A stretch of 64,000 nt of DNA from Escherichia phage vB_EcoM_ESCO47: the sequence record OM386662.1. One strand, given 5' to 3'. The number at the start of each line of letters is the position of its first letter. The first letter of the stretch is position 1. This document shows, piece after piece, positions 17,339 to 52,361 of this stretch. The notes under the pieces were generated by a model that saw only the letters and a list, made by a program, of their open reading frames with translations, did not search any database and was not told the DNA's origin. A program made the translations under genes and the position numbers.

Positions 17339-17379
17339 GTTTACAATGTTATAGGGCTATGTTATAGTAGTCCTATCAA
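17339..17379 (+). promoter_or_regulatory. T4-type early promoter
   Basis: GTTTAC -35, ~17 bp, TGnTATAGT extended -10, conserved CCTATCAA start region. Confidence 0.55.
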
Positions 17380-17405
17380 AACAAAACCAAATTAAAGGAA
17401 ATAAA

Positions 17406-19418: not shown

Positions 19419-19493
19419 GGCCCTTTAGCTCAATGGGAGAGCTGTCAGCTCATAACTGATAGGTAGCTGGATCGAAACCAGCAAGGGTCACCA
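19419..19493 (+). tRNA. tRNA with CAU anticodon (Met or lysidine-modified Ile)
   Basis: Manual cloverleaf: acceptor GGCCCTT/AAGGGTC, D-arm GCTC..GAGC, anticodon loop CTCATAA, T-stem GCTGG/CCAGC, 3' CCA encoded. Confidence 0.75.
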
Positions 19494-19497
19494 ATTT

Positions 19498-19569
19498 GGA
19501 TGCATAGCTCAGTGGTAGAGCAGTTGACTGTTAATCAATTGGTCCATGGTTCGAATCCATGTGTGTCCG
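19498..19569 (+). tRNA. tRNA-Asn (GUU anticodon)
   Basis: Manual cloverleaf: D-loop AGTGGTA, anticodon loop CTGTTAA, T-arm CATGG-TTCGAAT-CCATG; acceptor with G-U pairs; no encoded CCA. Confidence 0.7.
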
Positions 19570-19576
19570 CAAATTA

Positions 19577-19652
19577 CGAGGCATAGCTCAGAAGGAAGAG
19601 CAAGGACCTTCTAAGTCCTAGGTCGTAGGTTCGATCCCTACTGTCTCGACCA
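19577..19652 (+). tRNA. tRNA-Arg (UCU anticodon)
   Basis: Manual cloverleaf: acceptor CGAGGCA/TGTCTCG, anticodon loop CTTCTAA, T-loop TTCGATC, CCA encoded; T4 also carries tRNA-Arg(UCU). Confidence 0.75.
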
Positions 19653-19886: not shown

Positions 19887-20507
19887 ATGTATACCTTTAA
19901 TGAATTTTTAGCCGAAACGGAAGTAATCACCGAAGCCGGTGTACGTATGACAAAAGAGAAATGGCAAGCTGCTTACGACGCTATTTCTGGTACAAAAACT
20001 AGTACAGAGTTTTTCAAAAACGTTCAAGCCATGTACGGTATCGACACTTCCAGCCAAAAAGAATATTACAGAGCTTCTAAAGCATTCAAAGATATTGTTA
20101 GTGGTGGTGTTTCTGCTAAATCAGGTTCGCCTAAAGTAAAACCTGCTCCTACCATTCCTAAACCTGCGTCCCCTAAAGCAAAACCTGAGCCTAAGCCGGA
20201 AGTAAAAGCAACTCCTAAAGCTCCTGCTCTTAAGTTTGATACTTCTAGCCTGGAAAAAAAATATAAACAACTATCTTCGCTTGTTCGTGATATTGAATCT
20301 GATACATCTTCACTCGTTCGTGAATTCAATAGTCTTCGTAATGGCCAACATATCAACAACCTTGATACCCCAGACCTTTATCGTCTTTATTTGACTATCG
20401 AAGGTTTGAAGTACACTCAACCACTTCATGATGAGATTAAAGAAAAACTTCGTCAAGCAGGTCGTTTGGCTGCTGACGCTGCTCAGTATGCAAAAACTCG
20501 TAAGTAA
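19887..20507 (+). CDS. Hypothetical protein with CTS-like N-terminus and Pro/Lys-rich linker
   Basis: MYTFNEFLAETE resembles the capsid targeting sequence; KPAPTIPKPASPKAKPEPKPE linker; late promoter TATAAATA upstream. Confidence 0.55.
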   Translation: MYTFNEFLAETEVITEAGVRMTKEKWQAAYDAISGTKTSTEFFKNVQAMYGIDTSSQKEYYRASKAFKDIVSGGVSAKSGSPKVKPAPTIPKPASPKAKPEPKPEVKATPKAPALKFDTSSLEKKYKQLSSLVRDIESDTSSLVREFNSLRNGQHINNLDTPDLYRLYLTIEGLKYTQPLHDEIKEKLRQAGRLAADAAQYAKTRK

Positions 20508-21217: not shown

Positions 21218-21252
21218 TTTACAAACTCTTGAGAGCAGAGTATAATGCTCTC
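21218..21252 (+). promoter_or_regulatory. Sigma70-type promoter with -10 embedded in a palindrome
   Basis: TTTACA-N17-TATAAT; inverted repeat GAGAGCA / TGCTCTC brackets the -10. Confidence 0.5.
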
Positions 21253-21287
21253 ATTGGATAATAAACCACCAATTGAAAGGTAATAAT

Positions 21288-21881
21288 ATGAACACACTGA
21301 AGAAACTTGTTGAATTCATCCGCACTAAACTGGGTACTGCTATGGCTAAAAATCTTACTGTCGAAGAACAGTATAACGCAGCTGCAGATAAGTTGATTAC
21401 CCAAATCAAAGAACTAAAAACGGCTTCTGTTAAATCTATTAATGAAGAAAAACGTATTCGCGAACTTGTTAATGAAAAGAACAAGCAAGCCGCTTCTAAG
21501 GAACGTGAAATTCGTAAGCTCCTGGCTGAAGGACAGGATGTTACCATGCATGCTAAGCTTGGTCTTCTGTATCGTCGAACTGCCGAACAACTTAATACAA
21601 AAGCTGATGGGTATGCCGCTATGCGAATTGAAATTGCTCGTAAGGTGGTTGAACTTGACGATGCTCGTCAGAATCTGGCAATCAAACTCGAATACATTCG
21701 TGAAACTCGAGCAGCCAATGCCCTTGGTATCTCTACGGCTGATGATGTAATTGAAATCGCTGCACTGACTAAGGTTGATATCGAAGACACTCTGACTCGT
21801 GTTGAAACGTTCAATGGCTCTCCAGCTGGTGTCGAAACCACTTCTGCTGATGTACAAGAATATATTAACTCTTTGAAATAA
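21288..21881 (+). CDS. Hypothetical coiled-coil protein
   Basis: Start set at MNTLKK with GAAAGG RBS; long predicted helical/coiled-coil region. Confidence 0.5.
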
Positions 21882-24030: not shown

Positions 24031-24072
24031 GTTTACAACAAGATAGGGCTATGTTATAGTAGTCCTATCAAA
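24031..24072 (+). promoter_or_regulatory. T4-type early promoter
   Basis: GTTTAC ... TGTTATAGT ... CCTATCAA. Confidence 0.55.
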
Positions 24073-24088
24073 TTAAATGGAGTCCACA

Positions 24089-25322: not shown

Positions 25323-25363
25323 GTTTACAACATGATAGGACTATGTTATAGTAGTCCTATTAA
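25323..25363 (+). promoter_or_regulatory. T4-type early promoter
   Basis: GTTTAC ... TGTTATAGT ... CCTATTAA. Confidence 0.55.
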
Positions 25364-25380
25364 AACATGAGGAGAATATT

Positions 25381-31324: not shown

Positions 31325-31783
31325 ATGACAATCAATTCAGAAGTTTTCATTCGTCGCAACAAACTCCGTCGAATCTTCGAATCGGAGTTCCGTCAAATCA
31401 ACGCCGATATCAAGAACTCTGCAAAAGCTCTTGGTATCACAGGCTTTCATATCAAGTATTCTCAACATCTTTTAGATCGTGCTATTCAACGTGAAATCGA
31501 TGAGAACTACGTTTTTGAATTATTCCGTAAAGTAAAAAATCATGTTAAAGAAGTTGCAGAATTTTTATCAATGCCAGCACGTCCTGATGTTGACGAAGAT
31601 TTTGTCGAAGGAGTTGAGTATCGTCCAGGACGTTTAGAAATAACCGATGGAAATCTTTGGTTAGGACTTACTGTCTGTCGAGAAAATCCTGCATTTGAAA
31701 TGAAAACTCTCCAATGCAGAATGGCTATTATCAATAGCAAACGACTACCTGGAAAAGCTTCAAAAGCAGTGATTAAAATCTAG
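31325..31783 (+). CDS. regB: Endoribonuclease RegB
   Basis: MTINSEVFIRRNKLRRIFESEFRQIN...RMAIINSKRLPGKASKAVIKI matches recalled T4 RegB; own early promoter. Confidence 0.9.
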   Translation: MTINSEVFIRRNKLRRIFESEFRQINADIKNSAKALGITGFHIKYSQHLLDRAIQREIDENYVFELFRKVKNHVKEVAEFLSMPARPDVDEDFVEGVEYRPGRLEITDGNLWLGLTVCRENPAFEMKTLQCRMAIINSKRLPGKASKAVIKI

Positions 31784-34933: not shown

Positions 34934-34974
34934 GTTTACATCTCGGTAAAATGGTGTTATAGTAGTCCTATCAA
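34934..34974 (+). promoter_or_regulatory. T4-type early promoter
   Basis: GTTTAC ... TGTTATAGT ... CCTATCAA. Confidence 0.55.
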
Positions 34975-34991
34975 ATAAAGAGGAGAACAAA

Positions 34992-35099
34992 ATGAAACTT
35001 TTGCTTATTGTATATGTTGTGATACAATACAACTATCCGATGTTCACATTCAATATGGTGAACAATATAATAAATCTTATTGAGAAGAGCATACAATGA
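34992..35099 (+). CDS. Small hydrophobic peptide (35 aa)
   Basis: GAGGAG RBS, ATGA-coupled to next gene; below ORF-track size cutoff. Confidence 0.35.
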   Translation: MKLLLIVYVVIQYNYPMFTFNMVNNIINLIEKSIQ

Positions 35100-40763: not shown

Positions 40764-40821
40764 TGTACAACCAAGGACGGATGGAGTATAATCATTCTAT
40801 CTTAACCAAGAGGAGAACATT

Positions 40822-41775
40822 ATGAAAACTCGTTCACATTACATTGATTACTTTGCAGGTCTTATCGCTAACGTTCATGCCCAACGTGCTTCTGGTGTAC
40901 TAGGATTTGATGTTCCACACCGAGATGTAGTAAGTGGTATTCTTCGAGATTTTGGTACATACATAGGCCAAGAAAATCATATCTGTAAAGATACTCAAAA
41001 TGCATATTCTCATTCATTAGGGACACTGCTTCAATGGTTCAAACGTTCTCGTTTATTATCTTCTACTGTAGCTCGCGATAACATTAAAAACTTTATGAAG
41101 CCGAGCTTTATTAAATCTGTGACATCTAAAACCGATTTGGTTGAATTCACTATTGTTAATGATGTTAAAAAGACTCGTTTGGCTGATTGGTTAACTACCA
41201 TTCCTGAAACTAAATTTGCTGATAAATTTGCTTGTGAATTCAATAACCAAGTGAATATGCTTTTTAAACATTCTCGTAAATTATTCACAGGCGGCGATGA
41301 TCGTACAAATACAGTTCATGCTAAAGATTGGGTTACTGCAGTGTTCAAACCAACCGGTAATGGTACCGCATCATTATCAATTGATATTCAGGTTCCTTAT
41401 TATTACTCACGTAATCTCGGCACCATGAAAGCTGAAGAAATTAAGAAGCACAATAAAACCATTCGTTCGCTGACTTATAAACTTCGCATGATGTTAAGAA
41501 TCATGGACGTGGTAGAAATGTATGATGAAACCGAAGATAACGGTTCAATGTTATTCAGTTCTCGTATTCAAATTAAGCTGAAGAACCCTAATACGTATAA
41601 ACCTAAGCCTATTAAAGAACCTAAAGTAGAAAAAGTTGATAATTTAAGAGAAGAACGCGAATATCTCAAATCTCGTCTGAAAGAAGTCGAAGCCCAGATT
41701 GCAGAACAAACTAAATCGTTAAAAGCTCTGAATGCGAAAGCGGATGGTTTACGAAATGCCATTGAGGTTTTATAA
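40822..41775 (+). CDS. Hypothetical protein with C-terminal coiled coil (paralog pair B)
   Basis: 317 aa; AGAGGAG RBS; similar size and architecture to 39786-40763. Confidence 0.5.
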   Translation: MKTRSHYIDYFAGLIANVHAQRASGVLGFDVPHRDVVSGILRDFGTYIGQENHICKDTQNAYSHSLGTLLQWFKRSRLLSSTVARDNIKNFMKPSFIKSVTSKTDLVEFTIVNDVKKTRLADWLTTIPETKFADKFACEFNNQVNMLFKHSRKLFTGGDDRTNTVHAKDWVTAVFKPTGNGTASLSIDIQVPYYYSRNLGTMKAEEIKKHNKTIRSLTYKLRMMLRIMDVVEMYDETEDNGSMLFSSRIQIKLKNPNTYKPKPIKEPKVEKVDNLREEREYLKSRLKEVEAQIAEQTKSLKALNAKADGLRNAIEVL

Positions 41776-46930: not shown

Positions 46931-47242
46931 ATGATTAGTTTTGAGCGGTATGTGGTGGAGAGATGGAATGGGTTTGATATGTTCGGTAATGACTATTATT
47001 TCTATGAATGTAGTCTAAATCCTAGTTTCTGGGCCGGACGTGAATCTGATCTCGAAGAAATTAATGCTCGCGCCGACCTGTTAGGTGAACTCCCTACAGT
47101 ATACTTTAGCTTTGACGAGTCAGGTTTCGTTATCCAAGTTTATTTTCCTGAAGAAAATTCAGGTGATGATTCTGTTAACCCGCCTTATTGGGCTTACCAG
47201 GGGATTATTTCTCGTGGAACAAAACAAGAACCTACAGAATAA
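46931..47242 (+). CDS. Hypothetical protein
   Basis: 103-aa ORF with AAAAGG RBS. Confidence 0.45.
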   Translation: MISFERYVVERWNGFDMFGNDYYFYECSLNPSFWAGRESDLEEINARADLLGELPTVYFSFDESGFVIQVYFPEENSGDDSVNPPYWAYQGIISRGTKQEPTE

Positions 47243-47537
47243 AATTGAAATCTACGGTATCCCTGAAGAAGTTGGTCGTTGTCCTGGATGCCATATGGTC
47301 ACAAAACTTTTAAAGGAACTCAATGCTCCTTTTACCTTTTATAAAGTCCTCACTAATAATGGTAAGATTGAATATGACCGTCCTTTAATCGTATCTCTTG
47401 CTAAACGTGCAGGATTCACTTCACTTAATATTCGTTATCCTGTCATATTTTTAAATGATAAGAAACAAAAGAATATTGCAGAGTTTAAAGAGTCTCTAAT
47501 TTCATTAGGATATGACTCTGATATAATCGAAGATTGA
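47166..47537 (+). CDS. nrdH: Glutaredoxin-like protein (NrdH-like); start uncertain
   Basis: CPGC redox motif in KIEIYGIPEEVGRCPGCHMV; only in-frame ATG (47166) overlaps previous gene in another frame; domain begins near 47241 without canonical start. Confidence 0.45.
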   Translation: MILLTRLIGLTRGLFLVEQNKNLQNKIEIYGIPEEVGRCPGCHMVTKLLKELNAPFTFYKVLTNNGKIEYDRPLIVSLAKRAGFTSLNIRYPVIFLNDKKQKNIAEFKESLISLGYDSDIIED

Positions 47538-47559
47538 CCAGGAGCCGTCTGGTCTTCTT
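47535..47559 (+). terminator. Intrinsic terminator candidate after glutaredoxin gene
   Basis: GACCAG-GAGCCGT-CTGGTC followed by TTCTTT. Confidence 0.5.
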
Positions 47560-47645
47560 TAACCCACTTCCTATATAATCTATTAGATTTCTTTCCTCTT
47601 TATCACAGTGTGCCCCTCTCAAATCAAAAATATTTTCATAAAGCA

Positions 47646-47678
47646 GTTTACTTTTGCCTATGGTGTGATACAGTAGTA
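47646..47678 (+). promoter_or_regulatory. T4-type early promoter
   Basis: GTTTAC ... TGTGATACAGT. Confidence 0.45.
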
Positions 47679-47702
47679 TTAACAACGTGTAAAGGAGCTC
47701 GT

Positions 47703-48113
47703 ATGAAGATACAAACTGATTCTACCCTAACCGAGCTCCATGAGCAAATAGAAGAACTCGGACTACCATGGTTTGAAGTTCCAATTTATGATTTCACAAT
47801 AGTGCCCTTGACTCCTGAAGATGAGGATGTCGCATCAGAGATATTTGAAGATGTTGAAATCGGTGATTCGTATGGTGTGACTCTTTCGTACAGTTCTGTT
47901 ATAGTTCTTACGATAAACTTGAATGAATCATGGGTGAACACCTTAGCGCATGAAATCGTTCATATCAAAAACAGTATTGCGGCGCATAAAGGGATAAAGT
48001 GGTGTGTAAACAATGACGAGGCTGAAGCCTACCTAGTCGGATGGTTATCTGAACAACTTTTTAAATTTTACACAAATCGTTTAAAAACAGTTTACACACC
48101 AAATGATAAGTGA
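47703..48113 (+). CDS. Putative zinc metallopeptidase-motif protein
   Basis: HExxH motif LAHEIVHIK; start set at MKIQTDS with AAGGAG RBS. Confidence 0.45.
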   Translation: MKIQTDSTLTELHEQIEELGLPWFEVPIYDFTIVPLTPEDEDVASEIFEDVEIGDSYGVTLSYSSVIVLTINLNESWVNTLAHEIVHIKNSIAAHKGIKWCVNNDEAEAYLVGWLSEQLFKFYTNRLKTVYTPNDK

Positions 48114-48130
48114 TACTATCGACCTATCAA
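48090..48130 (+). promoter_or_regulatory. T4-type early promoter (inside 3' end of upstream gene)
   Basis: GTTTAC ... TGATACTAT ... CCTATCAA. Confidence 0.5.
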
Positions 48131-48147
48131 CTACCGATGAGAACATT

Positions 48148-48330
48148 ATGCTTATCAAAGATAAAGAAATTAAAGTTGACTGGTATTATTCGGTAAATGG
48201 CTATCCTGTACAGGTAACCAAAGTGACTGACCAAGATGTATGGTATCGTCCTTTGAAACGGCCTGACTCACCATTAATGGTATGTAATCATTCGGTGTTT
48301 TGTTCGGTAGCAAAGGAAATTAAATCATGA
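48148..48330 (+). CDS. Hypothetical protein
   Basis: Start set at MLIKDKEIK downstream of early promoter. Confidence 0.4.
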   Translation: MLIKDKEIKVDWYYSVNGYPVQVTKVTDQDVWYRPLKRPDSPLMVCNHSVFCSVAKEIKS

Positions 48331-48575
48331 GCCTGAAAATACACGCAAAGAGAAATGTTATTACCCTGAATCTTGACGACGAACGTTTGATTTTTATTAC
48401 TATCACAGATAAAAATATTGAAATTGCTAATGGTCCTAAGGCTTATTGCTGTCCTGTTAAGAATTGGAAACACGTAACATTTCTTACTTTAGGCGACCTC
48501 CTTGAAGATATTAAATTGGATTTAGGAATTCGAGATATCCAATACATTAAAAATATTATTGATGCTAACTGCTGA
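48327..48575 (+). CDS. Hypothetical protein
   Basis: 82-aa ATGA-coupled ORF. Confidence 0.45.
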   Translation: MSLKIHAKRNVITLNLDDERLIFITITDKNIEIANGPKAYCCPVKNWKHVTFLTLGDLLEDIKLDLGIRDIQYIKNIIDANC

Positions 48576-48583
48576 GGTAACTA

Positions 48584-48876
48584 TGGGTAAAACTATCCGT
48601 CGTAAAGAATTGACTGTAAAAGATTTTTATTATTCAGGACGCCGTAAAGCACCTGACGGTGTAAGTCAGGATCAAGTTGAAGAAAATATCTTCCGTTCCG
48701 ATAAGTGGAAACGTATGCGCGGAACCAGTTCTGAAGTTAAAAAGCATCAAAGCAGCCTTTTACGAGGCGAAGTAAGAAAATTGAAAAAAGATGTTTACAG
48801 TAAAGAGGATTATGATTATAATACTTCTCATACTGAAGCCAAACGTAAAGCCAATGAATGTTTCAAATACAGTTGA
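48584..48876 (+). CDS. Hypothetical basic protein
   Basis: Start MGKTIRRK with GAGGT RBS. Confidence 0.45.
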
Positions 48877-48885
48877 GGAAATTGA

Positions 48886-49036
48886 TATGACTATTTTAAC
48901 AGAATCCGTAAAACGCACTCTCTACAAGCAAGGTCTTTATTCACTGCCACGTGCTCCTAAAGCAGATTCAAGCAAATGGACCCTGGCAAAGTGGATTAAG
49001 TTTATTGACGAAAATGGGACTTGGAACACAAAATGA
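48886..49036 (+). CDS. Hypothetical small protein
   Basis: Start MTILTESVK after GAGGAAATTGATATG junction (same junction precedes 49309). Confidence 0.35.
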
Positions 49037-49233
49037 ACACTGAAAATATTGTGTCATGGCAACTTCGTGAAGAACGCGCCGAATTCTTTGCCAACATGAA
49101 ACTCAACGGTGTTGAGGACGAAGACTTTTTACGCTGGTTCTGGATTTACAAATATAAAGAATGCCAACATGCCGTGCTATTGACTTGCGCAGTTATGTAC
49201 GAAGGCTGGAAAGGTGCCAAAAAGTTCGGATAA
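49033..49233 (+). CDS. Hypothetical protein
   Basis: ATGA-coupled start MNTENIV. Confidence 0.4.
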   Translation: MNTENIVSWQLREERAEFFANMKLNGVEDEDFLRWFWIYKYKECQHAVLLTCAVMYEGWKGAKKFG

Positions 49234-49236
49234 CGA

Positions 49237-49271
49237 TTTACAAACTCTTGGGAGTAGAGTATAATACTCCC
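49237..49271 (+). promoter_or_regulatory. Sigma70-type promoter with -10 embedded in a palindrome (second copy)
   Basis: TTTACA-N17-TATAAT; inverted repeat GGGAGTA / TACTCCC with compensatory changes relative to copy at 21218. Confidence 0.5.
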
Positions 49272-49308
49272 AATGGATAATAAAATTTTAATTACCGAGG
49301 AAATTGAT

Positions 49309-49641
49309 ATGTCTACTGAAATCAAAAATGTTGTTAACTCCTTTGCCTACGATAAAGTTGTAGATCTGATGGAAAAAGGCAATTCTGTTACTCCTCAAAT
49401 TCTTGATGCATGGGAAGCGCGCCTTTATGAAATCATGCAGAAACATGATCAAAAAATCGGACGTAATTCAATTCGTGAAATTCTGGTTCAGTACATTCTC
49501 TCTGAATTTGATGTTGCAGCATTTGGTGTTGAATCAAAAGCTTACCAGAAACATGAAATCTCTGAAACGACTATCCGTCGTATGAAGAATCAGCGTAAGA
49601 AAAAATTCGTTGACCTGAAAATTGTTAAGGCGGCAAAATGA
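49309..49641 (+). CDS. Hypothetical protein
   Basis: Start MSTEIKNVV after GAGGAA RBS; sigma70-type promoter upstream. Confidence 0.45.
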   Translation: MSTEIKNVVNSFAYDKVVDLMEKGNSVTPQILDAWEARLYEIMQKHDQKIGRNSIREILVQYILSEFDVAAFGVESKAYQKHEISETTIRRMKNQRKKKFVDLKIVKAAK

Positions 49642-49865
49642 GCTTAAACGAAACTTTGATTAATGACCTTCGTTTAGCTGGTTATGAAGTAAACACCAAT
49701 AACATTGGTTTGATTCAGATCGAAGGTCCTGGATTTATTTTAGAACATGAATTCAATCAGTGGTGGTTATATGAATCATATGACGATTCACTGCATTTTG
49801 AATACGTCGACCAGTTTGATCGTTTAGATGATGCTCTGGAAGCGGCTAAGTCGATGAGTCTATAG
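49638..49865 (+). CDS. Hypothetical acidic protein
   Basis: 75-aa ATGA-coupled ORF. Confidence 0.45.
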   Translation: MSLNETLINDLRLAGYEVNTNNIGLIQIEGPGFILEHEFNQWWLYESYDDSLHFEYVDQFDRLDDALEAAKSMSL

Positions 49866-49879
49866 TCGATAGTATCTCG

Positions 49880-49917
49880 TGCTTTAAGACGGGTCTTCAA
49901 ATATTATGATATAATAG
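49880..49917 (+). promoter_or_regulatory. Promoter upstream of gene 55 (class uncertain)
   Basis: TGCTTTA box-like element, TGATATAAT extended -10 and CCTATGAA start region. Confidence 0.35.
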
Positions 49918-49944
49918 ACCTATGAATTGAGCCAAGAGGTACTT

Positions 49945-50505
49945 ATGACTAATGTAAAGTTAACCAAAAATAACTATGTAAATAACAAAGAGCTTCTCGC
50001 TGCTATAACGGAGTGGAAAAAGGAGCTCCTAAATAATAAAGACCATAATAAAATTGTTCGACAGAATGATACAATAGGGTTGGCAATTATGCTAATTGCT
50101 GAAGGTCTCTCTAAACGTTTTAACTTTTCAGGATACACCCAGTCTTGGAAACAAGAAATGATTGCCGACGGAATTGAAGCTTCTATTAAAGGACTTCATA
50201 ATTTTGATGAGACTAAATACACTAACCCACATGCATACATAACTCAAGCTTGTTTTAATGCTTTTGTCCAACGTATCAAAAAAGAGCGTAAGGAAGTTGC
50301 AAAGAAATATAGTTACTTCGTTCATAATGTCTATGACAGCCATGACGATGATATGGTAGCGTTGGTAGATGAAACCTTTATTCAGGACATTTACGATAAA
50401 ATGACGCATTACGAAGAATCTGCTTATAAAGCTCCTGGGGCTGAAAAGAAGGAAACTGTTCGCGATTCACCAAGTTTGGATTTTTTATATGAGGACGACA
50501 ATTGA
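49945..50505 (+). CDS. 55: Late-transcription sigma factor gp55
   Basis: [20 protein letters not shown]...[47 protein letters not shown] matches recalled T4 gp55; start set at MTNVKL with AGAGGT RBS. Confidence 0.9.
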
Positions 50506-50707
50506 CATCTCTAATTTTTTAGAAGAACCATTTGATGAAGCATTACCTTATTCCGTAAAAATGTTGGGTCGAGAAGCATTTAAAATTAATTTCGATATCG
50601 ACCCTTTAAATCCACATGACGTATCCTTTTCAATTAATGGACAAGAAGTTGAGTACACGTTTAGTATTGAAGAGGATGGACGTTTTTATTTTAATTTGAT
50701 GAGATAA
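50489..50707 (+). CDS. Hypothetical protein
   Basis: 72-aa ORF overlapping gene 55 end; start uncertain. Confidence 0.35.
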
Positions 50708-50708
50708 T

Positions 50709-51074
50709 ATGAATACCGAGATTATTGAAAGCGCTGAACATAAATTGGCTAAAGAATTTGAAGAAATTCGTGAAGCCGAAAACAAAGAAGCCGAAGATAA
50801 AGTAGCCAAAATGCTACAAGAAATCCAAAAGAAAAATGAAGCTGAAGCCGCTAAGAAAGCCGAAAAGATTCTTAAAAAGAATCGCGGTGAACTCAACCGT
50901 CTTTATGCTCATGCGCAAGAAGCTGCAATTCAAAATAACTTCGAAGCTTATGAATACGCTATTAAAAAATCTCGTGATATTCTGCGTCAACCTTACACCG
51001 ACGAATTGATTAAAATTCAGTGGGTTACCACTCGTCAGGCTATTGAGGATATCATTAATGGCATTAGTAAATAA
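50709..51074 (+). CDS. Hypothetical helical protein
   Basis: 121-aa ORF, Glu/Lys/Ala-rich. Confidence 0.45.
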   Translation: MNTEIIESAEHKLAKEFEEIREAENKEAEDKVAKMLQEIQKKNEAEAAKKAEKILKKNRGELNRLYAHAQEAAIQNNFEAYEYAIKKSRDILRQPYTDELIKIQWVTTRQAIEDIINGISK

Positions 51075-51258
51075 ACCATTTAAACGGCTTCTAGTAGGAG
51101 CCGCTTTTAGACTTCGCTCTTATGGTGATATTTGTATCAAGCAGTCCGAAACCGAATACAAAATGATTGGACGTACGTCTGATGGTATTTTTCAGATTGA
51201 GCCTGTAGCGAAGGTATGGGTAGATTCACATCAACTTAAAAAATGGTGGCAGCGTTGA
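51058..51258 (+). CDS. Hypothetical protein
   Basis: Start MALVNKPF with GAGGA RBS; followed by intrinsic terminator. Confidence 0.4.
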   Translation: MALVNKPFKRLLVGAAFRLRSYGDICIKQSETEYKMIGRTSDGIFQIEPVAKVWVDSHQLKKWWQR

Positions 51259-51266
51259 ATAATTTA

Positions 51267-51293
51267 AAGGAAGCACTAGTGCTTCCTTTTTTT
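51267..51293 (+). terminator. Intrinsic terminator
   Basis: AGGAAGCAC-TA-GTGCTTCCT palindrome followed by TTTTTTT. Confidence 0.7.
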
Positions 51294-51317
51294 GCTTTCT
51301 ATACGGGATGATAGAAT
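51291..51317 (+). promoter_or_regulatory. MotA-dependent middle promoter candidate (genes 47/46)
   Basis: TTTGCTTTC, 12 bp, -10 TAGAAT; directly after terminator. Confidence 0.45.
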
Positions 51318-51341
51318 GAATTATCTTAATGAGGAAATGAT

Positions 51342-52361
51342 ATGAAAATTTTGCAATTAGGTGACTTCCATATCGGGGTCAAACAAGACGACCCATGGGT
51401 TCAAGATATTCAGCGTGACGGCATTCGACAAGCAATTGAGTATTCTAAGAAAAACGGAATTAACACATGGATTCAATATGGTGATTGGTTTGATGTCCGT
51501 AAAGCAATAACACATCGCACAATGGAATTTAACCGTGAACTGGTCAACATGATTACTAAAGCTGGTATTCGTGTCCATGTAACTATCGGGAATCATGACA
51601 TTGCGTTCAAGAATACAATAACACCAAATACGGTTTCTGAACTACTTACCCAATTTGAAAACTTTACAATCTATGAACATCCAACTACAGTAGATTTCGA
51701 CGGTTGTCTTATTGATATTATTCCATGGATGTGTGAAGAGAATACAGGCGAAATCTTAGAACATATCAAAACGAGTTCAGCCGCGTATTGTGTTGGGCAC
51801 TGGGAACTGAATGGCTTTTATTTCTATAAAGGAATGAAGTCTCATGGGCTTGAACCTGATTTCTTAAAGACTTATAAACAAGTCTGGTCCGGCCACTTCC
51901 ACACAATCTCTGAAGCTGCTAACGTCAAATATATTGGGACACCATGGACCCTTACTGCAGGTGATGAGAATGATCCTCGCGGATTCTGGGTATTTGACAC
52001 TGATGTTGAACGTATGGAATTTATTCCTAATGAAACAACATGGCATCGACGAATCACTTATCCGTTTAAAGGCAAAATCAATTATTCTGATTATACTAAT
52101 CTAGCCGTACGTGTTATAGTATCAGAAATTGATTCAGAGTTGACTAAGTTTGAATCTGAACTTGAAAAAGTAGTTCACTCTCTTCGTATGGTTTCTAAAG
52201 TTGATAACAGTGTTGAATCTGATGACGACCAGGAAATCGAGATTAAATCACTTCAAGATATCATTAAAGAATATATTGACGCGATTCCAGATATCTCGGA
52301 CGAAGACAGAGAAGCGCTGGTCAAATATTCCAACGAACTTTATATTGAGGCAACACAATGA
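51342..52361 (+). CDS. 47: Recombination endonuclease subunit gp47 (Mre11-like)
   Basis: MKILQLGDFHIGVKQDDPWVQ...; phosphoesterase motifs GDxHxG, GNHD; 339 aa as T4 gp47. Confidence 0.95.
   Translation: MKILQLGDFHIGVKQDDPWVQDIQRDGIRQAIEYSKKNGINTWIQYGDWFDVRKAITHRTMEFNRELVNMITKAGIRVHVTIGNHDIAFKNTITPNTVSELLTQFENFTIYEHPTTVDFDGCLIDIIPWMCEENTGEILEHIKTSSAAYCVGHWELNGFYFYKGMKSHGLEPDFLKTYKQVWSGHFHTISEAANVKYIGTPWTLTAGDENDPRGFWVFDTDVERMEFIPNETTWHRRITYPFKGKINYSDYTNLAVRVIVSEIDSELTKFESELEKVVHSLRMVSKVDNSVESDDDQEIEIKSLQDIIKEYIDAIPDISDEDREALVKYSNELYIEATQ

What the first reader, a model, noticed from the sequence alone, without database searches (positions are those of the whole stretch)
49237..49285. Second copy of the palindrome-embedded promoter
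See the finding at 21218; this copy sits upstream of ORF 49309, six genes before sigma factor gene 55, and carries the GGGAGTA / TACTCCC variant of the stem.
Basis: seen in the sequence. Interest (0 to 1): 0.4.

Follow-up and report, generated by a model that had tools for sequence, protein, structure and literature searches.

The report
Early promoter inside a conserved hairpin
This is a real, repeated phage "early promoter built into a hairpin" cassette of a kind already described in T4-type phages (PeSL elements); what is added here is evidence that the hairpin is kept by compensatory mutations and sits directly before a likely RegB RNase cutting site.

Summary
Window 49237-49285 has a near-consensus early promoter (TTTACA, 17 bp, TATAAT). 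A perfect 9-bp inverted repeat (TTGGGAGTA / TACTCCCAA) brackets the -10 box. The site at 21218 is a second copy with a different but still complementary stem. One detail is wrong: gene 55 is the third gene downstream (55.2, 55.1, 55), not six genes away.

The window is a Mosigvirus-like T4-type phage. The element fits the published PeSL class (promoter-early stem-loop; Arbiol 2010, Comeau 2014), so the kind is known.

New here:
- Across 24 distinct homologues, 6 of 9 stem pairs change on both sides.
- The closest published orthologue (G2285) differs by five substitutions. All five are in the stem and all keep or extend pairing.
- Mispairs are mostly G·U rather than A·C. Both arms lie upstream of the predicted start. 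The hairpin therefore most likely acts in read-through RNA.
- The block just 3' of the stem, GGAUAAUAAAA, matches the RegB/S1 target consensus exactly. T4 has the same block at the same junction, where RegB cleavage upstream of ORF 55.2 is published.
- Relatives carry an extra ORF here, flanked by two such cassettes.

Verdict: an ordinary new member of a known kind, with a testable hairpin-plus-RegB-site idea.

The parts
49219..49223 (+). A5 tract about -53 to -49, lying in the 3' end of gene 55.3. It may be a weak UP-like element.
   Evidence: Read from the sequence. Otherwise the 20 nt upstream of the -35 box are no more AT-rich than the genome average. Copy 1 has a clear A-rich tract.
49237..49242 (+). 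-35 hexamer TTTACA (the T4-type early promoter form).
   Evidence: It matches the TTTACW given for T4/PST PeSLs in PMC4122927.
49248..49256 (+). 5' arm of the hairpin, TTGGGAGTA, occupying spacer nt 6-14.
49257..49264 (+). 8-nt loop GAGTATAA, containing the first five bases of the -10 box.
   Evidence: It is invariant in all 24 homologues because the search pattern fixed it.
49260..49265 (+). -10 hexamer TATAAT.
49265..49273 (+). 3' arm of the hairpin, TACTCCCAA, starting at the last T of the -10 box.
49272..49273 (+). Predicted transcription start (A/A, 7-8 nt after the -10 box). This is inferred, not measured.
   Evidence: Inferred from standard sigma-70 promoter geometry. It means the cassette's own transcript contains neither complete arm of the hairpin.
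49275..49285 (+). GGATAATAAAA, an exact match to the strong RegB/S1 target consensus GGA(G/U)RAYARAA. The predicted cut is between G49276 and A49277.
   Evidence: 5 exact matches in the window, all on the + strand, against 0.9 expected. The consensus is from PMC3014915 and PMC1702504. The identical block is present at the T4 55.3/55.2 junction. The regB gene is in the window.
49297..49311 (+). Shine-Dalgarno GAGGA (49297-49301) and the ATG of the gene 55.2 homologue (49309).
   Evidence: 75% identity to T4 gp55.2.
21218..21266 (+). Sister copy. The -35 box is at 21218-21223, the stem is TGAGAGCA (21230-21237) / TGCTCTCA (21246-21253), the -10 box is at 21241-21246, and GGATAATAAAC is at 21256-21266. 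It lies upstream of ORF 21288-21881, downstream of the tRNA cluster and an internal-protein-like gene.

Best explanation
The element is a PeSL-type composite regulatory cassette of a T4-type (Mosigvirus-like) phage. It has three overlapping parts.

1. Promoter. A strong host-sigma-70 early promoter (TTTACA-17-TATAAT) starts transcription at about 49272 and drives genes 55.2, 55.1 and probably 55 right after infection.

2. Hairpin. The 5' arm lies in the promoter spacer and the 3' arm starts at the last base of the -10 box. Both arms are upstream of the cassette's own start site. The hairpin can therefore form only in RNA that reads through from upstream early promoters. There it most likely acts as a 3' structural barrier or attenuator that marks the end of the upstream cistron. 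It is not a classical terminator.

3. RegB site. One nucleotide after the stem lies GGAUAAUAAAA, a RegB/S1 endoribonuclease site. A cut there would sever the upstream message, leaving it capped by the hairpin. The cut would also strip the first few nucleotides from the cassette's own transcript and so expose the downstream message to decay.

Because the whole roughly 50-bp module is repeated, it also offers homology for the gain and loss of small genes.

Shown here: the sequence anatomy, covariation of the stem, recurrence of the design, synteny, an indel at the site, the consensus match, and the presence of regB.

Inferred: promoter activity, the start site, RNA-level action of the hairpin, and RegB cutting at this site in this phage.
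For: Promoter:
- It scores 11 of 12 with a 17-bp spacer.
- It matches the T4/PST PeSL promoter formula TTTACW-N17-TAYWAT.

The stem is maintained:
- In 24 distinct homologues collected with both arms unconstrained, 6 of 9 pairs change on both sides.
- There are 27 doubly changed cells against 9.3 +/- 2.4 in shuffles (0 of 500 reach it).
- Pairing is 87.5%, against 38-57% when the partner is slid by 1-3 columns.
- There are at least nine different stem sequences.
- The syntenic cassette in phage G2285 differs from the window's copy by five substitutions between the -35 box and the GGAU block. All five are in the stem: two compensatory pairs plus one added pair.
- Unrelated chance hits to the same search pattern show no pairing.

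RNA or sense-strand action:
- In the inner seven pairs, the non-Watson-Crick cells are 10 G·U against 1 A·C.
- A second promoter family shows 3 kinds of G·U mispair and no A·C in its inner pairs.
- Both arms lie upstream of the predicted start.
- Upstream genes are co-oriented, with early-promoter-like sites at 48091 and 48794. No terminator-like site lies between them and the cassette on the + strand.

Generality: 8 of 26 early-promoter-like sites in the window have an embedded stem of at least 8 bp at p <= 0.016, where about 0.4 is expected. Several are in the same register.

RegB:
- The consensus match is exact.
- regB is encoded at 31325-31777.
- GGA(U/G) plus an A-rich tail is kept 0-3 nt after the stem in all family members.
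- T4 has no promoter at this junction but has a different hairpin (AAGGGC-UUCG-GCCUUU) followed by the identical UGGAUAAUAAAAUUUUAA.
- Durand et al. 2006 report that ORF 55.2 carries one of only two RegB-cleaved intergenic GGAU sequences in T4.

Indel association: Mosigvirus O157tp6 and an IMG/VR relative have an extra 79-aa ORF at this spot, flanked by two promoter-hairpin cassettes. This is the pattern reported for PeSLs.
Against: - There is no expression data for this phage. Promoter use, the start site, hairpin formation and RegB cutting are all inferred.
- The two window copies are perfect Watson-Crick palindromes and fold equally well on either strand. Strand preference therefore rests only on homologues.
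- The G·U versus A·C contrast is based on few independent events (about 8 kinds against 1), and the sequences are related.
- One orthologue (L001) carries an A·C mismatch.
- T4 has two GGAU sequences upstream of 55.2: the consensus one and one in the Shine-Dalgarno region. The text of PMC1702504 held here does not say which is cut.
- A RegB site only 3-4 nt from a 5' end may not be usable on the cassette's own transcript.
- Terminator or attenuator activity has been measured only for a GC-rich RB49 stem-loop, not for this type.
Confidence: 0.7

Rival explanations
1. The palindrome matters only as DNA. It is a recombination substrate (homology, or a hairpin or cruciform cut by phage nucleases) that shuffles small genes, and the stem has no role in RNA.
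For: PeSLs were proposed as recombination points, and mini-circles were detected between flanking PeSLs. Relatives have an extra ORF flanked by two cassettes exactly at this site. The two window copies are perfect palindromes on both strands.
Against: Homologous exchange needs only the repeated sequence, not self-complementarity. That leaves unexplained why the stem is restored after mutation. Mispairs are mostly G·U, which would be C·A on the other strand. A 9-bp stem with an 8-nt loop is a poor cruciform. This reading can coexist with the main one as a side effect.
Confidence: 0.12
2. The hairpin is a classical intrinsic (Rho-independent) terminator that stops upstream transcription at the promoter.
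For: The PeSL papers call the stem-loop a terminator or attenuator. An RB49 stem-loop reduced lacZ expression about as much as rrnB T1. The stem is stable: about -15 kcal/mol for the 64-nt segment, z about -2.8.
Against: No U tract follows the stem; the sequence after it is AAUGGAUAAUAAAA. The terminator scan does not list it, although it does find a canonical terminator at 51266-51289. No family member has a U run next to the stem.
Confidence: 0.1
3. The inverted repeat is an operator for a dimeric phage or host protein that switches off early promoters.
For: The repeat overlaps the core promoter, which is where repressors act. The mechanism of T4 early-promoter shut-off is described as not explained by AsiA.
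Against: Half-site sequences vary widely (at least nine stem versions) while complementarity is kept. This is the signature of base pairing, not of protein-base contacts. A second promoter family has an unrelated stem sequence in the same register.
Confidence: 0.04
4. There is no function. The palindromes arise and are perfected by templated (strand-switch) mutation at quasi-palindromes, a process known in T4, and are simply carried along with the promoter.
For: Templated correction would generate apparently compensatory changes without selection. This rests on established knowledge of quasi-palindrome mutagenesis in T4 and was not tested here.
Against: It does not explain the fixed register relative to the -35 and -10 boxes across unrelated stem sequences. 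It does not explain the enrichment at about a third of early promoters or the excess of G·U intermediates. It also leaves unexplained why T4 keeps a different hairpin at the same junction.
Confidence: 0.04

Closest known systems
PeSL elements (promoter-early stem-loop cassettes) of T4-type phages: Arbiol et al. 2010 (PMC2839356) for RB49/phi1; Comeau et al. 2014 (PMC4122927) for T4/PST and KVP40/nt-1
   Same: [quoted passage not shown] Both are repeated in the genome, sit among small non-essential ORFs, and lie next to indels between related phages. The promoter formula TTTACW-N17-TAYWAT and the stem type AGNA...TNCT given for the T4/PST group fit this element.
   Different: For PST the figure legend places the stems just upstream of the promoter. 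Here the stem is inside the promoter, which is the commonest arrangement described for RB49/phi1. Neither PeSL paper mentions covariation, RNA-level pairing or RegB. This family also has an added conserved GGA(U/G)+A-rich block after the stem.
Conserved intercistronic early-promoter and stem-loop repeats of the T-even internal-protein (IP) loci (Repoila et al. 1994, as summarised in PMC2839356)
   Same: These are T4-type early promoters with AT-rich stem-loops flanking variable small genes. Copy 1 (21218) lies in the corresponding region, downstream of the tRNA cluster and an internal-protein-like gene. T4's own ipIII/ipII/denV intergenic regions show promoters with the -10 box inside a stem-loop.
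   Different: The 1994 paper could not be read here, so details rest on the later summary. The copy under review lies in the gene 55 region, not an IP locus.
RegB/S1 endoribonuclease target sites of T4 (Durand et al. 2006, PMC1702504; Uzan & Miller 2010, PMC3014915)
   Same: The 11-nt single-stranded site GGA(G/U)RAYARAA sits in an intergenic region of an early transcript. The identical 11-mer is present upstream of T4 ORF 55.2, where a RegB-cleaved GGAU is reported.
   Different: Most known sites are Shine-Dalgarno sequences. This one lies 34 nt upstream of the start codon, right after a hairpin and at +3/+4 of the predicted transcript. Cleavage in this phage is untested.
Intrinsic terminators, and 3' stabilising hairpins of bacterial and phage operons
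   Same: Both are stable intercistronic RNA hairpins at the end of a cistron.
   Different: This element has no U tract, and its loop and 3' arm are constrained by the -10 box.

Membership tests
PeSL (promoter-early stem-loop cassette) | Sigma-70-like early promoter; for the T4/PST group, TTTACW-N17-TAYWAT. | tested here: met
   TTTACA-17-TATAAT at 49237-49265.
PeSL (promoter-early stem-loop cassette) | Sequence able to form a stable stem-loop within or next to the promoter. | tested here: met
   A 9-bp perfect stem overlaps the -10 box. The segment folds at about -15 kcal/mol, z -2.8. Covariation across homologues supports it.
PeSL (promoter-early stem-loop cassette) | [quoted passage not shown] | tested here: inconclusive
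   Copy 1 has TTGATTAAAAAATAA. Copy 2 has only an A5 tract at 49219-49223 within the end of gene 55.3, and is otherwise near the genome-average AT content.
PeSL (promoter-early stem-loop cassette) | Shine-Dalgarno sequence and start codon of the downstream gene at the 3' end; intergenic between co-oriented small ORFs. | tested here: met
   GAGGA at 49297-49301 and ATG at 49309. The flanking genes are the 55.3 and 55.2 homologues.
PeSL (promoter-early stem-loop cassette) | Repeated in the genome and associated with indels or replacements between close relatives. | tested here: met
   There are two copies of this family plus other stem-bearing early promoters. Relatives have an extra 79-aa ORF flanked by two cassettes at this site, and T4 has no promoter here.
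PeSL (promoter-early stem-loop cassette) | Measured promoter activity, and attenuation of upstream transcription. | not testable with these tools
   This needs reporter fusions or RNA mapping. Published tests exist only for RB49/phi1 elements.
Intrinsic (Rho-independent) terminator | GC-rich hairpin immediately followed by a U tract. | tested here: not met
   The stem is followed by AAUGGAUAAUAAAA. The terminator scan of 47000-52000 does not report it.
RegB/S1 target site | 11-nt sequence GGA(G/U)RAYARAA. | tested here: met
   GGATAATAAAA at 49275-49285 is one of 5 exact matches, all on the + strand, against 0.9 expected.
RegB/S1 target site | The site is single-stranded, in an intergenic part of an early transcript. 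| tested here: inconclusive
   The site is intergenic and 1 nt 3' of the stem. It is unpaired in the fold of copy 1. In copy 2 it is weakly paired in an MFE structure with 14% ensemble frequency.
RegB/S1 target site | The phage encodes RegB. | tested here: met
   tblastn gives 78% identity to T4 RegB at 31325-31777.
RegB/S1 target site | RegB-dependent cleavage in vivo. | not testable with these tools
   Cleavage of a GGAU at T4 ORF 55.2 is published. The identical 11-mer is present there, but which of T4's two GGAU sequences is cut could not be read.
Protein operator (palindromic repressor site) | Half-site sequence conserved among homologues. | tested here: not met
   There are at least nine stem sequences with complementarity kept.
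Rfam RNA families | Match to a curated covariance model. | tested here: not met
   Only three tRNAs reach the gathering score in the whole window.

The most novel reading that the evidence does not exclude
The hairpin and the adjacent RegB site form one conserved functional unit, a cistron-boundary processing module. RegB cuts 1-3 nt after the stem. The upstream message is then left with a 3'-terminal hairpin that blocks exonucleases, and the downstream message loses its protected 5' end and decays. The promoter is folded into the same hairpin so that the downstream genes are re-supplied only while early promoters fire. The T4 junction supports the unit being independent of the promoter: it has a different hairpin, no promoter and the same RegB block. 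This coupling is not described in the PeSL or RegB papers read here.
Probability: 0.3. Interest if true: 0.5.

Novelty: new member of a known kind. Interest (0 to 1): 0.3.

Why it matters
On its own this is a routine regulatory cassette of a T4-type phage, and near-identical copies exist in published Mosigvirus genomes. Its value is as a clean natural experiment. The same promoter is carried with many different but always complementary stems, and T4 keeps a different hairpin in front of the identical RegB block at the same gene junction. Together these suggest that the stem-loops of PeSL elements work in RNA, and that at least one family works together with RegB. Whether they are terminators has only been assumed. 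This would link two separately studied topics, PeSL-mediated genome plasticity and RegB-controlled early mRNA decay, and it can be tested with simple mutants.

Tried and rejected
- My first homologue scan fixed TTG in the 5' arm, which forces G·U mispairs at two positions. I discarded that G·U count and rescanned with both arms free.
Only the clearly bimodal group with 8-9 pairs was used.
- An intrinsic terminator is rejected because no U tract follows the stem.
- A coding explanation for the conserved tail is rejected. The ORF listing offers an in-frame ATG at 49273, but it has no ribosome site. In copy 1 and in relatives the frame is closed or the ATG is absent.
- The tail as a Shine-Dalgarno sequence is rejected, because every family member has a separate Shine-Dalgarno sequence 20-25 nt further on.
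- No Rfam family matches.
- Repoila et al. 1994 could not be read.
- Figure 3A of Durand 2006, which would show the exact 55.2 cut site, is not held.
- No metagenome or bacterial-genome scans, protein database searches or structure predictions were run, because the question is about non-coding DNA and the viral collections gave enough homologues.

Full report
**Observation.**

The sequence at 49237-49285 reads ATTTACA-AACTC-TTGGGAGTA-GAG-TATAAT-ACTCCCAA-T-GGATAATAAAA. Its parts are:
- a -35 hexamer TTTACA (49237-49242), a 17-bp spacer and a -10 hexamer TATAAT (49260-49265);
- a perfect 9-bp inverted repeat, TTGGGAGTA (49248-49256) and TACTCCCAA (49265-49273), around an 8-nt loop that holds most of the -10 box.

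The site at 21218 has the same layout with the stem TGAGAGCA / TGCTCTCA. The two copies differ in the stem by two compensated changes. A 37-nt pattern that leaves the inner stem free, allowing up to 3 mismatches, finds only these two sites in the window. It finds none in 100 shuffles.

One stated detail is wrong. tblastn with T4 proteins and PHROGs gives the order 55.3 (49033-49233), cassette, 55.2 (49309-49641), 55.1 (49638-49865), gene 55 (49945-50505). Gene 55 is therefore the third gene downstream, not six genes away.

**What genome this is.**

The window is a T4-type phage. It is about 92% identical over 24 kb to published Mosigvirus (RB69-group) phages such as NHEP10, F2 and G2285. Around the finding itself the identity is only about 84%. 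The window encodes homologues of T4 e, ipIII, ipII, regB, tk, nrdH, 55.x, 55, 47 and 46 on the + strand.

**Known class.**

Arbiol et al. 2010 (PMC2839356) and Comeau et al. 2014 (PMC4122927) describe PeSLs, promoter-early stem-loop cassettes of T4-type phages. A PeSL has:
- a sigma-70-like early promoter;
- an AT-rich upstream region;
- the Shine-Dalgarno sequence and start codon of the next gene.

PeSLs are repeated among small non-essential ORFs and lie next to indels. For the T4/PST group the papers give the promoter as TTTACW-N17-TAYWAT and the stems as often AGNA-loop-TCNT. The finding fits this description. The authors regard the stem-loop as a terminator or attenuator of upstream transcription. 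They tested only a GC-rich RB49 stem. Neither paper mentions RegB, covariation or RNA-level pairing.

**Is the stem maintained?**

I scanned IMG/VR with patterns that fix only the promoter parts and the loop and leave both arms free. This gave 24 distinct homologous cassettes plus unrelated chance hits.

The homologues carry at least nine stem versions:
- GAGAGCA/TGCTCTC
- GGGAGCA/TGCTCC(C/T)
- GGGAGTA/TACTCCC
- GGGACCA/TGGTCC(C/T)
- GGGATCA/TGGTCCT
- GGGGTCA/TGACCCC
- GGGGCCA/TGGTCCC
- GAGGACA/TGTCCTC
- AGGAGCA/TGCTCCT

On the gap-free alignment A1:
- 6 of 9 pairs change on both sides;
- 27 cells carry a double change, against 9.3 +/- 2.4 in shuffles (0 of 500 reach it);
- 87.5% of cells pair, against 38-57% when the 3' partner is slid by one to three columns.

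The chance hits to the same pattern show no pairing.

The sharpest single comparison is with the syntenic cassette of phage G2285. It sits at the same 55.3 stop and upstream of the same 55.2 start. Between the -35 box and the GGAU block it differs from the window's copy by five substitutions. All five are in the stem: two compensatory pairs and one change that adds a ninth pair. Eighteen of the 62 aligned positions are stem positions, so by position alone the chance of this is about (18/62)^5 = 0.002 (my arithmetic).

**Is the design general?**

Other early-promoter-like sites in the window carry an unrelated stem in the same register. At 17340, 24032 and 25324 the stem is ATAGG(G/A)CTA...TAGTCCTAT. 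The 5' arm again occupies spacer nt 6-14, and the 3' arm again starts at the last T of the -10 box.

I compared each of 26 candidate sites with shuffles of its own spacer and downstream sequence. Eight have an embedded stem of at least 8 bp at p <= 0.016, where about 0.4 would be expected.

In IMG/VR the second family is bimodal. There is a chance background of 3-5 pairs and a separate group with 8-9 pairs whose stems again covary: GGGCTA/TAGCCC, GGGTCA/TGACCC, GGGCCA/TGGCCC and GGATTA/TAGTCC. T4's own ipIII/ipII/denV intergenic regions show the same arrangement.

**RNA or DNA?**

Three points favour RNA.

First, the predicted start is at 49272-49273, based on standard sigma-70 geometry. Both arms therefore lie upstream of the cassette's own transcript. 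Only read-through RNA from upstream can contain the hairpin. The upstream genes are co-oriented, and early-promoter-like sites lie at 48091 and 48794. No terminator-like site lies between them and the cassette on the + strand.

Second, the mispairs are biased. In the inner seven pairs of the arms-free set, the non-Watson-Crick cells are 10 G·U against 1 A·C. The second family adds three kinds of G·U mispair and no A·C in its inner pairs. A G·U pair on the sense strand is a C·A mismatch on the other strand. This favours pairing in the sense-strand RNA over a cruciform or a protein-bound duplex. The evidence is limited: few independent events, related sequences, and two window copies that fold equally well on either strand.

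Third, variable half-sites with preserved complementarity argue against a sequence-specific operator.

The hairpin is not a classical intrinsic terminator. No U tract follows it, and the scan does not report it, although it does report a canonical terminator at 51266-51289.

**The conserved tail.**

All family members keep GGA(U/G) followed by an A-rich stretch 0-3 nt after the stem. Examples are GGAUAAUAAAA, GGAUUAUAAAA, GGAGUAUAAAA, GGAGAAUAAAC and GGAGCACAAAA. This block is not the Shine-Dalgarno sequence, which lies 20-25 nt further on.

The strong RegB/S1 target is GG*AGRAYARAA, and GGAU is tolerated only with a strict A-rich tail (PMC3014915 and PMC1702504). The window's GGATAATAAAA (49275-49285) matches at every position. 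It is one of five exact matches in the window, all on the + strand, against 0.9 expected (0 of 100 shuffles reach five). Three of the other four are Shine-Dalgarno sequences of early genes. The window encodes RegB (31325-31777, 78% identical to T4 RegB).

At the same 55.3/55.2 junction T4 has no promoter. It has a different hairpin (AAGGGC-UUCG-GCCUUU), followed two nucleotides later by the identical UGGAUAAUAAAAUUUUAA. Durand et al. [quoted passage not shown] T4 has two GGAU sequences upstream of 55.2. By the authors' own rule the consensus one is the likelier target. The figure that would settle this is not held, so this step is inference.

**Indel association.**

Mosigvirus O157tp6 (L001) and an IMG/VR relative (L048, about 90% identical to the window over 11 kb) have an extra 79-aa ORF between 55.3 and 55.2. 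It is preceded by its own promoter-like hairpin (ACGATAGGAAG...CTTCCTATCGT) and followed by the family-1 cassette. The window and G2285 have a single cassette and no extra ORF. T4 has neither the promoter nor the extra ORF. This is the pattern PeSL papers attribute to exchange between flanking cassettes.

**Most likely mechanism.**

The cassette is a composite boundary module.
- The promoter fires with host RNA polymerase immediately after infection and transcribes 55.2, 55.1 and probably 55.
- The hairpin forms in read-through RNA and marks the 3' side of the upstream cistron as a structural barrier or attenuator.
- RegB, once made, cuts at GG^AU just after the stem. This leaves the upstream fragment capped by the hairpin. 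It also removes the first few nucleotides from the cassette's own transcript, which would feed the known RegB, polynucleotide kinase and RNase G/E decay route described in PMC3014915.

The anatomy, covariation, recurrence, synteny, consensus match and presence of regB are shown. Promoter activity, the start site, hairpin function and RegB cutting in this phage are inferred. I put about 0.7 on the overall reading and about 0.3 on the specific hairpin-plus-RegB coupling.

**Novelty and score.**

The kind is known, and near-identical cassettes are present in published genomes. About 735 phage records have a match, with up to four places per genome. The window's copy is a new stem variant of a known element. 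The covariation evidence and the link to RegB go beyond what the PeSL papers state, and they give a modest, testable idea. Interest is 0.3.

Noticed in passing
window 17340-17385, 24032-24077, 25324-25369; also 17732, 39144, 40764: A second family of early promoters (GTTTACA-N17-TATAGT with TGn) has an unrelated stem ATAGG(G/A)CTA / TAGTCCTAT in the same register as the finding. Two of the three copies have a G·T wobble. Further promoters carry embedded stems of 9-12 bp.
   Followed up: partly
window 34935-34992: A half cassette: it has the promoter and the 3' arm TAGTCCTAT of the second family, but the 5' arm is replaced (GTAAAATGG). It is followed by the Shine-Dalgarno sequence GGAGAACAAAA, an exact RegB consensus. 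This may be a recombination product like the 'degraded PeSLs' in PMC4122927.
   Followed up: no
L049 (T4 NC_000866, 55.3/55.2 junction, about 40786-40860): T4 has a UUCG-tetraloop hairpin followed by UGGAUAAUAAAAUUUUAA inside the annotated 3' end of ORF 55.3. In the window and in Mosigvirus, the homologous 55.3 ORF stops before this region.
   Followed up: partly
L001 2150-2210 and L048 (syntenic): An extra 79-aa ORF sits between 55.3 and 55.2 in some Mosigvirus relatives. It is preceded by a hairpin ACGATAGGAAG-ATAATAACATGA-CTTCCTATCGT with a degenerate -35 box (ATATACA / ATGTACA).
   Followed up: partly
window 51266-51316: A canonical terminator-like hairpin (AAAGGAAGCACTAGTGCTTCCTTT followed by a T run) is followed 17 nt later by GGATGATAGAA. 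That is another exact RegB-consensus match that is not a Shine-Dalgarno sequence. It lies upstream of gene 47 (start 51342).
   Followed up: no
window 19419-19652 and 19887-20507: Three tRNA genes (Met, Asn, Arg) are followed by an ORF starting MYTFNEFLAE. This resembles the N-terminal capsid-targeting sequence of T4 internal proteins (from memory), so copy 1 of the cassette may lie in an internal-protein-type variable region.
   Followed up: no
L181 740-1111 (phage G2285, CDS G2285_00074): The annotated start of the 55.2 homologue is an ATG inside the -10 box / 3' arm of the cassette. The start with a Shine-Dalgarno sequence is 39 nt further on, so this is probably an annotation error. In the window, the ORF listing likewise offers an in-frame ATG at 49273 that has no ribosome site.
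   Followed up: partly
L026 (IMGVR_UViG_3300022932_000015), around the pattern match: An unrelated viral contig, picked up by chance, has TTGATATAG-GAGTATAA-TTATATCAA. That is a TATAAT box inside an 8-9 bp hairpin in the same register.
   Followed up: no
window 49880-49925: Between 55.1 and gene 55 there is a TGCTTTAAG motif resembling a MotA box, and GATATAATAGACCTAT, whose end resembles the 3' arm of the second hairpin family. This may be a middle promoter or a cassette remnant in front of gene 55.
   Followed up: no
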